A DNA stretch of 64,000 nucleotides. Source: Escherichia coli. GTDB taxonomy: Bacteria; Pseudomonadota; Gammaproteobacteria; Enterobacterales; Enterobacteriaceae. The stretch is taken from assembly GCF_017348835.2 (NCBI RefSeq), contig NZ_CP071375.1; one strand, written 5' to 3'. Each line of letters opens with the position of its first letter. The first letter of the stretch is position 1. Position numbers: made by a program. Positions 36,001-39,000 of this stretch are shown here, in pieces.

Positions 36001-39000
36001 AATACCGGAAATGCTGAAATGATGTCGTAAAATGGCGTGAGTCGATAACTGCCGCCAGCCTGAATAAATACGGAGAAGTTTTTTGCATGGCCATCCGTTG
36101 CGCCAATCAGTTCGCTGCATACCGGTCCGACCCCGTACTGCTCACGCAGCTTATCCAGCAGTGGCATTATTTTTTCCAGAGGCGGTCGAACTCCGCCTTC
36201 GCAAAATAAGCGGAAGCCTGGCGAAGGATATCGTTACTGCGGCGCAGTTCACGATTTTCACGTTCCAGCTCTTTCAGACGCTGACGTTCAGCGGTGGTGA
36301 GTCCACCATCACCACTCCCGGTATCCCGCTCATGCTGGCGAACCCAGACACGCAGAGTCTCCGGCGTACAGCCAATCTTTGGGGCAATGGAACAAATTGC
36401 CGCCCACTGTGAGTCATATTCATCCTGACTTTCCAGAACCATACGAATCGCCCGCTGACGGACTTCGGGGGAAAAACGAGTATTTTTAGTCATCCTGTTT
36501 ACCTCTTTCTCAGGGAGTTTAGTCTCCAGGATTTCCGGGGCGGTTCACAACGCTGTCTCGCCCTATTTCTGACAATAAATCAAACGGTTGTCTGGATTTG
36601 GCATGATAACGTTTAACGATCCGGTCACGTACAATCGGGCTATCGGGTAACAAGTTATCGAAGAAGTTAAATACGGCATCAGAGGTGATATTCCCCCTCT
36701 GCAATGGCAGCGAAAGTGACAACGGTCTGGCATAACGGCTGGCTAACCACTCCGGTGCATACTTAAAGGTGTGCGCGCCGTTGGCTAACTTCGTTAACTC
36801 GCCTACCCGCTGGTTGTTCATCCAAGTGACTAGTTTGGGCATTACCACTCCAGATCTTGCTGTTCTGTTGATTCTGGCGAGGCATTTTTCGTGTCGCATA
36901 GCGTCATTGAGAGTTCAAGCGACTGTAAAATCTTAAAAAATGTCGTGAGCGAGGTATTGTCAGGGTTGTTTTCGAAATTGGAAATCGTCGCCTGCTTAAT
37001 GCCGATTTTTTTCGCCAGCTCGCTCTGCGTCCAGCCATTTTGCTGGCGAACCAGTTTCATTGCATTCGCTAATTGCGTTGGGCTATAGATCTTCTGAAAG
37101 CTCATCATGTCATACGTCCACAGCAAATTTATCCGCTTAAGGGGATATTATCAGTTTTATCCTTTAGTGAGGATAAAGTCAATCTGGAAACACATCTTAT
37201 CCGCTCTACGGGATAAACGCTGCGATATCCGCGATCGCGGATAAAAGGGAGGCTTTAAAAGCCGTTTGAAGTCGGCAATATTAAGCCGCATGCCATCTCG
37301 ACATGCGGCTTATACGGTTTACCAGCTATATTTCACTCCCAGCATGCCCTGAGTATCGCTATAGCCTTTATCACCTAGTTGCACACCGACATTCCCCCAC
37401 AGGCTAAGGTTGTTATTTACTTTCGCCTCAACCCCGGTACGTACTTCACCGAGATTACGCGCACCATCACGGCTTACGGTTTGACCATTCATCTTCACGG
37501 CGTAGACTTCGCTATTGTTGATCCAGTTCGCTTCAATGTAAGGCTGGAACTCACGCTGTTTACCATCGTCACGCTGGTGATGGCTATTCAGGTAGGTTTT
37601 CACCCCAAGTCGCGTTTGCACGTTTCCGTCGCCTTCCGTTTCAATGCGCGTTCCGTCTTTCCGGGTATGGTCAGAATCTTTCACACCCATCCAGGTGATT
37701 TGTACCTGTGGCTGGACGTACCAGGTATTCAGCGTCCCTTCGCTGCCACTAAATGTTCCCGCTTCAAAGGTATACCCACCCTCAACAGAGGCCGTCACAC
37801 CGCGAGAATCATAGTCGTCAGCAGAACGGTTATCGGAACTGACACTGTTATCAAACCAGTTATACAGCACCCAACTGTCAACATAAGCGCCGGTCTTATT
37901 CGCATCGTTCTGATACCAGGTCGCGTACAGCCCAGCGCTGTAACCGCTGATGCGCCCATCCGATTTATAACCCACACGATTACTCTGAGTATTACTGTGC
38001 TGATTGGCGTAGCCTGCCATCACGCCAAGATGCCAGCGATCCTGCGCGTTGCTACTCCACTGCGCCAAATCGCCGCCTAGCTGCAATACATAGCGGTTAG
38101 CCTGAGCATTTAGCTGGCCGTCACCGGTCCTGAAACGTTCGTGTCCCCCGACATGACGCATCCACATACTGCTTGCCGAACCCTGAGAAAGCCGTGAATC
38201 TGTATACTGCGGCTCACCCAGACGGTCGTGTAAGCGATGGCTAAACAGCGAGTTGGCTGCGGCAATGTTGCTGATATAGCTTCCGGCCTCCGGGCGATAA
38301 ACTGATGGGCCTTCCGGATCCACAACAGGGGGATTATTGATGGGATCGGGTGTATCCGCTGGCGTTACGCCGTCCCATTTACTGGTCAGATACCAGTTTT
38401 TCTCGTCATTCCCCTTCCCTTTAGCCAGCGTGTAGACGTAAGCCCCAGCTTCGACAGTTCCGGTGGTCAGCGCGAAGTTACCTGCAGAATTACCGCCAAC
38501 CTCAATGAGTTCAATACCGTTGACCGTTTGCGCACCGACGCCGCCAATGTTATCAACCCGAACGCGAGTGTTCCCTTGGGTATCGCCTTTCACGTTCATC
38601 TTATCGGTGGGTGAATTATCGCCGCCCAGCGTCGCGTTGAACGTTATCAGGCCATTGTTTCCGGTATAGTTGCCGTTAACGGTCAGTACATTCCCCGGTT
38701 TTCCTCCTTCACTGTTCATTTGAACCGTGCCGCCATTCTTCAGGTTGCCGCCGATTGTGGTTTTAGCGACACGCAGTGTCCCCCCAGACATAACGTTCAC
38801 ATCACCTGCAGTGGTGACATTTCCCGACATCACACCGCTGTTATGGATATTAATGTGTTGACTTACCGTATTAATGGCAGAGTCGGAACCGAAAGCAATT
38901 TCCCCCCCCCCACGATATCCGTCGTACCCTGATACGCCGAGGAATCGTTGTTAAGAGTCAGGATCCCGGTACCCAGTTTTGTCAAATCACCGCTACCGCT

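What the first reader, a model, noticed from the sequence alone, without database searches (positions are those of the whole stretch)
37130..37243. Four perfect TATCC-N8-GGATA HipB operators retained upstream of a crippled hipBA module
All four operator palindromes are perfect and hipB is intact, yet hipA is destroyed. Without HipA as corepressor partner, autoregulation of this promoter may differ, and HipB may be free for other interactions.
Basis: partly seen in the sequence, partly recalled or inferred. Interest (0 to 1): 0.4.

Follow-up and report, generated by a model that had tools for sequence, protein, structure and literature searches.

The report
Known hipB operators beside IS-broken hipA
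This is the well-studied E. coli hipBA control region: its four HipB repressor binding sites and the hipB gene are untouched, and the neighbouring toxin gene hipA was wrecked so recently by a mobile element that their survival says nothing about selection, so the finding is ordinary.

Summary
Four perfect TATCC-N8-GGATA palindromes lie at 37130-37243 (0.04 expected per window). Each matches the corresponding E. coli K-12 hipBA operator, O1-O4, base for base, and they sit 21 nt upstream of an intact hipB.

hipA is destroyed. Codons 1-98 run into a 440-bp IS629 remnant. A deletion then joins that remnant to hipA codons 304-440, removing residues 99-303.

The window is 99.98% identical to pig strain PE164, which carries the whole IS629 at the same site. 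Strain F2_81 has an intact hipBA with 0 differences over 5.3 kb. The damage is therefore very recent. From the window-PE164 divergence, about 0.04 changes are expected in operators plus hipB, so "retained" is uninformative.

Published work shows that HipB alone binds these operators at sub-nanomolar Kd and that a hipA deletion has no phenotype. The likely state is plain HipB self-repression.

The state is not unique:
- An independent IS insertion disrupts hipA in strain HH35.
- A truncation by a SIR2-gene island is shared by 356 of 5,426 complete genomes.
- Strain fS54a has lost hipA entirely.
- O157:H7 lost hipB and the operators instead.

No other HipA or HipH homologue is in the window, and PE164 lacks hipH at its usual site. 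Already known; low interest.

The parts
37226..37243 (.). hipBA operator O1 (TATCCGCGATCGCGGATA), the one furthest from hipB
   Evidence: Perfect palindrome; identical to K-12 O1
37198..37215 (.). hipBA operator O2 (TATCCCGTAGAGCGGATA in the hipB direction), 10 bp from O1
37158..37175 (.). hipBA operator O3 (TATCCTCACTAAAGGATA), 22 bp from O2 (21 bp in K-12)
   Evidence: K-12 spacing from PMC4150777
37130..37147 (.). hipBA operator O4 (TATCCCCTTAAGCGGATA), 10 bp from O3; it ends 21 nt upstream of the hipB ATG
37147..37182 (-). Promoter-like hexamers flanking O3: TTGACT at 37177-37182 and GATAAT at 37147-37152 (TATAAT in K-12). This assignment is my own reading and is not verified.
   Evidence: Sequence. 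The consensus promoter scan found no canonical sigma-70 site here, and the hexamers are 24 bp apart.
36842..37108 (-). hipB, intact: an 88-aa Xre-type helix-turn-helix antitoxin and repressor ending in ...QQDLEW
   Evidence: identical to WP_001613070.1 of PE164 and F2_81
36519..36842 (-). Truncated hipA: codons 1-98, which make up the complete Couple_hipA N-terminal domain, plus 9 IS-encoded codons and a stop. Its ATG overlaps the hipB stop codon (TAATG).
36108..36547 (-). IS629 remnant, 440 of 1310 bp: the left end, orfA and the first 20 codons of orfB. It has no right end, so it cannot move.
   Evidence: Alignment to PE164 and F2_81; 99.4% identical to the annotated IS629 of phage BP-4795
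36167..36493 (-). IS629 orfA (108 aa, HTH_Tnp_1)
36096..36212 (-). ALIL -1 frameshift pseudoknot of IS629; its last ~12 nt are now hipA sequence
   Evidence: Rfam RF01497, 88.9 bits, E 1e-22
36108..36109 (.). Deletion junction. Relative to PE164, 1488 bp are missing (870 bp of IS629 plus 618 bp of hipA). The junction has a 2-bp CA microhomology.
   Evidence: absent from all 5,426 complete E. coli genomes
35697..36109 (-). hipA 3' remnant, codons 304-440. It is fused in frame to IS629 orfB codons 1-20, giving the chimeric ORF 35697-36167.

Best explanation
This is the canonical E. coli hipBA promoter-operator region with hipB, now a stand-alone, self-repressing antitoxin gene because hipA was very recently inactivated.

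Order of events, inferred from sister genomes: IS629 inserted after hipA codon 98, the state seen in strain PE164. A 1488-bp deletion then removed the rest of the IS together with hipA codons 99-303.

Mechanism, from published K-12 work and not tested here: HipB dimers bind cooperatively to the four TATCC-N8-GGATA operators that flank and overlap the promoter, and shut off transcription of hipB and whatever lies downstream.

Without HipA two things are lost: the co-repressor contribution, and HipA's protection of HipB from Lon protease. What remains is a simple negative feedback loop in which DNA-bound HipB is stable and free HipB is degraded. I expect at most mild de-repression and no toxin activity.

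The perfect operators and intact hipB reflect the short time since the damage, not demonstrated selection.
For: - The four sites are real and identical to K-12 O1-O4.
- hipB is intact.
- The remaining hipA fragments are residues 1-98 and 304-440. The missing stretch contains the positions I recall as the Ser150 autophosphorylation site, the P-loop and Lys181 (S and K at those positions).
- The window is collinear with PE164 and 99.98% identical except for the 1488-bp deletion.
- PE164 has a full 1309/1310-bp IS with a 3-4 bp target duplication in hipA. The element is IS629.
- F2_81 has an intact hipBA with 0 differences over 5.3 kb.
- Expected neutral changes in operators plus hipB are about 0.04.
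- Literature: HipB alone binds O1O2 with Kd 0.6 nM; operator DNA or HipA each stabilise HipB against Lon; a hipA deletion has no phenotype (PMC3376134). HipA acts as co-repressor (PMC3920265).
- hipA loss with hipB kept has happened independently elsewhere, with four perfect operators each time.
Against: - Nothing here measures transcription, HipB level or binding.
- The promoter hexamers could not be confirmed. The scan found no canonical promoter, and the primary papers (Black 1994; Schumacher 2009 and 2015) are not held.
- The deletion junction is found in no other complete genome, so an assembly error cannot be excluded. hipA is dead either way.
- The operator half-sites are invariant in all nine strains compared, whether or not hipA is intact. 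That is also compatible with continued selection on HipB binding.
Confidence: 0.85

Rival explanations
1. Selection keeps hipB and its operators after toxin loss, because HipB has functions that do not need HipA. Candidates are repression of other promoters carrying the same palindrome, or neutralising the HipA paralogue HipH/YjjJ.
For: - At least four independent hipA-loss states keep an intact hipB and four perfect operators: the window/PE164 lineage, HH35 (an IS3-family element of the IS629 type after codon 258), the 98224 type (truncated at codon 231 by a SIR2-gene island, a junction shared by 356 of 5,426 genomes) and fS54a (hipA deleted).
- In the strains compared, variation falls only in the N8 spacers, never in the TATCC/GGATA half-sites.
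- Literature: the HipB palindrome lies upstream of 33 genes, with repression of relA, eutH and fadH shown (Lin 2013, cited in PMC10305079). HipB rescues YjjJ/HipH toxicity.
Against: - In this lineage the lesion is too recent for decay to be visible.
- O157:H7 lost hipB and the operators outright, so hipB is dispensable once hipA is dead.
- The nearest complete genome has no hipH at the deoD-lplA locus, and megablast finds hipH in only 1,348 of 5,426 genomes.
- HipB did not inhibit HipH DNase activity in vitro.
- Only one extra perfect site exists in the window, and it is inside a coding sequence.
Confidence: 0.1
2. The truncated hipA product, which is the complete HipA N-terminal domain and is homologous to the HipS antitoxin of hipBST systems, still binds HipB. 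It would then act as a partial co-repressor or stabiliser, so the locus works as a two-protein regulator without a kinase.
For: - The 107-aa ORF contains the whole Couple_hipA domain (profile positions 3-92 of 99, E 1.4e-25). Its start still overlaps the hipB stop codon (TAATG).
- HipA N-terminal domains contact one HipB subunit in the ternary complex (PMC3920265).
- HipS is homologous to HipA N-subdomain 1 (PMC8262856).
- RefSeq also annotates 'HipA N-terminal domain-containing protein' in the 98224-type lineage.
Against: - The breakpoint is set by where IS629 happened to land. Other lineages break hipA at codons 231 and 258 or delete it entirely, so no consistent domain is retained.
- There is no evidence that the fragment folds or is stable.
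- HipB contact in the complex also needs the HipA C-terminal domain.
Confidence: 0.03
3. The 1488-bp deletion is an assembly artefact, and the true genome carries the complete IS629 in hipA, as PE164 does.
For: - The junction occurs in none of 5,426 complete genomes.
- One breakpoint is inside a multicopy IS.
- The window also differs from PE164 at a C10/C11 homopolymer and by a TA indel, which could point to sequencing noise in one of the two assemblies.
Against: - The other breakpoint is in single-copy hipA sequence, with only 2 bp of microhomology. That is not how repeat collapse usually looks.
- The window's gadB is intact where PE164's is frameshifted, and 8 SNPs separate the two. This points to a distinct isolate rather than a worse copy of the same assembly.
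Confidence: 0.1

Closest known systems
E. coli K-12 hipBA promoter-operator region (O1-O4; Black et al. 1994, Schumacher et al. 2009 and 2015, cited from memory and via reviews)
   Same: All four 18-bp operators are identical. Order, orientation and position upstream of hipB are the same, and the 10-bp O1-O2 and O3-O4 gaps are the same. HipB is 97% identical.
   Different: The O2-O3 gap is 22 bp rather than 21, and the -10-like hexamer is GATAAT rather than TATAAT. Both differences are also present in F2_81, 21AR0173 and other strains with an intact hipA. hipA itself is disrupted.
Orphan antitoxin genes left after toxin loss in E. coli, for example the orphan higA genes reported in strains NRG857c, CFT073, HS and K-12
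   Same: The antitoxin/repressor gene survives while the cognate toxin gene is a pseudogene or absent (PMC7232551).
   Different: Here the toxin remnants and the inactivating IS are still present, and the event can be placed after the split from a sister strain with 0 differences over 5.3 kb.
IS629 (IS3 family) insertional gene inactivation followed by a deletion
   Same: The element is 99.4% identical to the annotated IS629. PE164 shows a 3-4 bp target duplication. orfA and the ALIL frameshift element are present.
   Different: Only 440 of 1310 bp remain. The deletion starts inside the IS rather than at its end. It creates an in-frame fusion of orfB codons 1-20 to HipA residues 304-440.
Other natural hipBA decay states in E. 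coli
   Same: HH35/PO06021, the 98224 type (356 genomes) and fS54a all keep hipB and four perfect operators while hipA is broken or gone.
   Different: The breakpoints and mechanisms differ. O157:H7 shows the opposite outcome: hipB and the operators are deleted and a 5'-truncated hipA is left.

Membership tests
HipB operator array of the E. coli hipBA promoter | Four copies of the palindrome TATCC-N8-GGATA | tested here: met
   Four perfect copies at 37130-37243; 0.04 expected per window
HipB operator array of the E. coli hipBA promoter | Sequence identity to the experimentally defined K-12 operators O1-O4 | tested here: met
   All 72 operator bases are identical to MG1655
HipB operator array of the E. 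coli hipBA promoter | Spacing of 10, 21 and 10 bp between operators | tested here: inconclusive
   The window has 10/22/10. The 22-bp form is a common natural allele, found in 7 of 9 sequences compared (the window and eight reference strains), including strains with an intact hipA.
HipB operator array of the E. coli hipBA promoter | Located immediately upstream of hipB and overlapping its promoter | tested here: inconclusive
   Position met: O4 ends 21 nt before the hipB ATG. The promoter hexamers could not be confirmed: the scan found none and the primary papers are not held.
HipB operator array of the E. coli hipBA promoter | Bound cooperatively by HipB, with repression of transcription | not testable with these tools
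   Known for the identical K-12 sequences (PMC3376134; PMC3920265)
Type II toxin-antitoxin module hipBA | Intact HipB antitoxin with an Xre-type helix-turn-helix domain and a C-terminal tail ending in Trp88 | tested here: met
   88 aa, HTH_3 E 3.3e-15, ends ...DLEW
Type II toxin-antitoxin module hipBA | Intact HipA Ser/Thr kinase of about 440 aa (Couple_hipA, HipA_N and HipA_C domains) | tested here: not met
   Only residues 1-98 and 304-440 remain, split by an IS629 remnant. The locus is therefore an orphan antitoxin, not a functional toxin-antitoxin pair.
Type II toxin-antitoxin module hipBA | A HipA-family toxin supplied from elsewhere in the genome | not testable with these tools
   There is none in the 64-kb window. 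No complete E. coli genome has more than two hipA-like places by megablast, and PE164's split gene accounts for two. PE164 has no hipH between deoD and lplA. Divergent homologues elsewhere in the unknown source genome cannot be excluded.
IS629 (IS3 family) | Near-identity to IS629, with an orfA/orfB arrangement and a -1 frameshift element | tested here: met
   The full copy in PE164 is 99.4% identical to the IS629 of phage BP-4795. The window has orfA with HTH_Tnp_1 and the ALIL pseudoknot.
IS629 (IS3 family) | A complete element with both ends and an intact orfB transposase domain | tested here: not met
   The window keeps only 440 of 1310 bp; the rest of orfB and the right end are deleted

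The most novel reading that the evidence does not exclude
After the toxin gene is lost, E. coli keeps the hipB gene and its four operators under selection as a free-standing, self-regulated transcription factor, possibly helped by a HipS-like HipA N-terminal fragment. On this reading the recurrent 'hipB-only' genomes are a functional end state rather than a stage of decay.
Probability: 0.1. Interest if true: 0.35.

Novelty: already known. Interest (0 to 1): 0.1.

Why it matters
It matters little beyond annotation. The operators, HipB and their mechanism are textbook, and a toxin gene knocked out by an IS next to a surviving antitoxin gene is a common form of genome decay.

The modest value is comparative. 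The strains F2_81 (intact hipBA), PE164 (whole IS629 in hipA) and the window's strain (IS629 remnant plus deletion) differ here almost only in hipA. They could serve as near-isogenic natural backgrounds for measuring how much HipA contributes to hipBA repression and HipB stability.

The survey also shows that loss of hipA with hipB kept is recurrent, including one junction shared by 356 of 5,426 complete genomes. That clade would allow a proper test of whether HipB has a role that does not depend on HipA.

Tried and rejected
- **Promoter scan of 36400-37500:** it found no canonical sigma-70 site, so I could not confirm the -35 and -10 positions. TTGACT and GATAAT are 24 bp apart (23 bp in K-12), and I leave the promoter assignment open.
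- **Primary papers:** Black 1994 and Schumacher 2009 and 2015 are not held. A further literature search for the transcription start gave nothing useful.
- **A wider HipB regulon in the window:** allowing one mismatch adds only two sites. Beyond the four operators there are 3 sites against 1.34 expected, which is background. The one extra perfect site is inside the F9 fimbrial usher gene.
- **A second HipA-family gene:** tblastn with HipA and HipH found only the two hipA fragments in the window. I located the deoD-lplA interval in PE164 and found an unrelated 87-aa helix-turn-helix gene on the opposite strand instead of hipH. I rejected the idea that it is a HipH N-terminal remnant, because the strand is wrong and the sequence shows no evident similarity by eye.
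- **The same deletion junction in other genomes:** none in 5,426.
- **Literature on natural hipA pseudogenes:** the search returned nothing specific to E. coli hipA::IS.
- I did not run the protein database, structure prediction or metagenome tools, because every protein here is more than 97% identical to a characterised E. coli protein.

Full report
**What is there**

The pattern TATCC-N8-GGATA occurs five times in the 64-kb window, against 0.04 expected; none of 100 shuffles reached five. Read on the minus strand, they are identical base for base to operators O1-O4 of the E. coli K-12 MG1655 hipBA promoter.

The gaps between them are 10, 22 and 10 bp. The published K-12 spacing is 10, 21 and 10 (PMC4150777). 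The extra T, and a linked TATAAT-to-GATAAT change next to O4, also occur in strains with an intact hipA, such as F2_81 and 21AR0173. They are ordinary alleles and are unrelated to the hipA damage.

O4 ends 21 nt upstream of the hipB start codon. hipB (36842-37108, minus strand) is an intact 88-codon gene. It is 97% identical to K-12 HipB and 100% identical to the HipB of F2_81, and it has an HTH_3 domain.

**State of hipA**

The hipA start codon still overlaps the hipB stop codon. Codons 1-98 are intact (36549-36842). The reading frame then runs into foreign DNA and stops after nine more codons.

The foreign DNA is the left 440 bp of IS629. The full copy in the sister strain is 99.4% identical to the annotated IS629 of phage BP-4795. 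The remnant carries orfA (HTH_Tnp_1 domain) and the ALIL frameshift pseudoknot (Rfam RF01497, 88.9 bits).

At 36108/36109 the IS sequence joins directly to hipA codon 304, and hipA then continues to its natural stop at 35697. Residues 99-303 are gone. In my recollection of the K-12 literature, this stretch holds the Ser150 autophosphorylation site, the P-loop and Lys181; the F2_81 sequence has S and K at those positions.

**Origin and age of the damage**

The window is a stretch of E. coli chromosome running from the ddp genes through gad, the F9 fimbrial genes, hipBA, the yneO-type autotransporter and lsr to the mar genes. It is collinear with pig strain PE164 (NZ_CP114128.1) and 99.98% identical to it. 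The differences are 8 SNPs, three small indels and one 1488-bp deletion.

PE164 carries a complete 1309/1310-bp IS629 at the same hipA position, with a 3-4 bp target duplication. Pig strain F2_81 has an uninterrupted hipBA with 0 differences over 5.3 kb.

The history is therefore intact hipBA, then IS629 insertion, then a deletion with CA microhomology that removed 870 bp of the IS and 618 bp of hipA. That junction is present in none of 5,426 complete E. coli genomes. It is either private to this isolate or, less likely, an assembly error.

At the observed divergence from PE164 (1.25e-4 per site), only about 0.009 changes are expected in the 72 operator bases, and about 0.04 in operators plus hipB. 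"Perfect operators retained" is what neutrality predicts and carries no information about selection.

**How it most likely works**

The binding chemistry is established for the identical K-12 sequences:
- HipB dimers bind the four operators cooperatively and repress the operon, with HipA as co-repressor (PMC3920265).
- HipB alone binds O1O2 with Kd 0.6 nM (PMC3376134).
- Operator DNA or HipA each protect HipB from Lon protease; the half-life rises to more than 200 min.
- A hipA deletion has no reported phenotype.

My inference is that HipB simply represses its own gene here. De-repression should be at most mild, and no large pool of free HipB should form. Free HipB is the form Lon degrades, and its synthesis is self-limited.

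I could not confirm the promoter hexamers. A consensus scan found none, and the primary papers are not held.

**Is HipB "free for other interactions"?**

The idea already exists in the literature. The HipB palindrome has been reported upstream of 33 genes, with repression of relA, eutH and fadH shown (Lin 2013, cited in PMC10305079). HipB overexpression rescues the toxicity of the HipA paralogue HipH/YjjJ, although it did not block HipH DNase activity in vitro.

Little here adds support:
- Beyond the four operators there is one perfect site, inside the F9 usher gene, and two one-mismatch sites. That is 3 against 1.34 expected.
- tblastn finds no other HipA or HipH homologue in the window.
- In PE164, the deoD-lplA gap where hipH sits in K-12 holds an unrelated 87-aa helix-turn-helix gene.
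- Megablast finds hipH in only 1,348 of 5,426 genomes.
- No complete genome has more than two hipA-like places, and PE164's split gene accounts for two.

A divergent HipA-family gene elsewhere in the unknown source genome cannot be excluded.

**How unusual is the state?**

A contiguous hipA is present in 4,849 of 5,426 complete genomes, and hipB with its operators in 4,799. The locus decays in several independent ways:
- An IS3-family element of the IS629 type sits after hipA codon 258 in HH35; PO06021 gave the same three-piece match.
- hipA is truncated at codon 231 by an island carrying a SIR2-family gene in strain 98224. That junction is shared by 356 genomes.
- hipA is deleted almost completely in fS54a.
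- In O157:H7 the opposite happened: hipB and the operators are deleted and a 5'-truncated hipA remains.

The three hipA-less strains examined (HH35, 98224, fS54a) keep an intact hipB and four perfect operators. In the window and the eight reference strains compared, all variation falls in the N8 spacers and none in the half-sites. This leaves some room for continued selection on HipB binding, which I rate at about 0.1. It does not single out this window.

**Verdict**

The feature is the already known hipBA operator array next to a recently IS-inactivated toxin gene. Interest is low.

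Noticed in passing
window 31597-31614: A fifth perfect TATCC-N8-GGATA (TATCCTGCGACCTGGATA) lies inside the F9 fimbrial usher gene, 5.5 kb from the operators. 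It is identical in K-12, where the breakpoint of the K-12 F9 deletion lies 8 bp beyond it. The chance expectation for one extra perfect site is about 0.04 per window.
   Followed up: partly
window 35697-36167 (minus strand) and 36096-36212: The deletion fused IS629 orfB codons 1-20 in frame to HipA residues 304-440. The ALIL -1 frameshift pseudoknot still scores 88.9 bits, so an OrfA-OrfB'-HipA C-terminal fusion protein could be made.
   Followed up: partly
window 37147-37182, compared with loci L001, L002, L005 and L009-L013: Two promoter-region variants are linked across strains. The window, PE164, F2_81, 98224, fS54a and 21AR0173 have an O2-O3 gap of 22 bp with GATAAT; 2014C-3061 has the 22-bp gap with GACAAT. 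K-12 and HH35 have a 21-bp gap with TATAAT. The T-to-G change also creates TGATAATAT, which resembles an extended -10 element.
   Followed up: partly
window 37319-40414 (minus strand); C-tract at 38893-38902: The autotransporter gene upstream of hipB (ECSE_1600/yneO family) is broken into three ORFs. It carries a run of 10 C where PE164 has 11. That could be slipped-strand variation or a homopolymer sequencing error.
   Followed up: no
window 12570 (gadB, ORF 12187-13656, minus strand): gadB is an uninterrupted ORF in the window. In PE164 it carries a TA insertion and is annotated as frameshifted. The two genomes are therefore sister isolates with independent lesions, or one assembly has an error.
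   Followed up: partly
L008 48113-48376 (PE164, deoD-lplA gap): hipH/yjjJ is absent from its K-12 position in PE164. In its place is an unrelated 87-aa helix-turn-helix gene on the opposite strand. Megablast finds hipH in only 1,348 of 5,426 complete E. coli genomes.
   Followed up: partly
L009 949-3196 (strain 98224) and 355 other genomes: An island carrying a SIR2-family gene and an ISNCY-family transposase fragment replaces the 3' part of hipA, leaving a 231-aa HipA N-terminal ORF. The junction is shared by 356 of 5,426 complete genomes.
   Followed up: partly
L014 933-2113 (O157:H7 strain H2495): In O157:H7, hipB, most of the operator array and the first ~250 nt of hipA are deleted, leaving a promoterless hipA pseudogene. 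This is the opposite decay outcome to the window.
   Followed up: partly
window 37251-37310 (minus strand): Between the autotransporter stop codon and O1 there are two hairpins: AAGCCGCATG...CATGCGGCTT, and GGCTTTTAAAGCC followed by a T-rich stretch. They look like the terminator of the upstream gene. K-12 has a 13-bp insertion between them.
   Followed up: no
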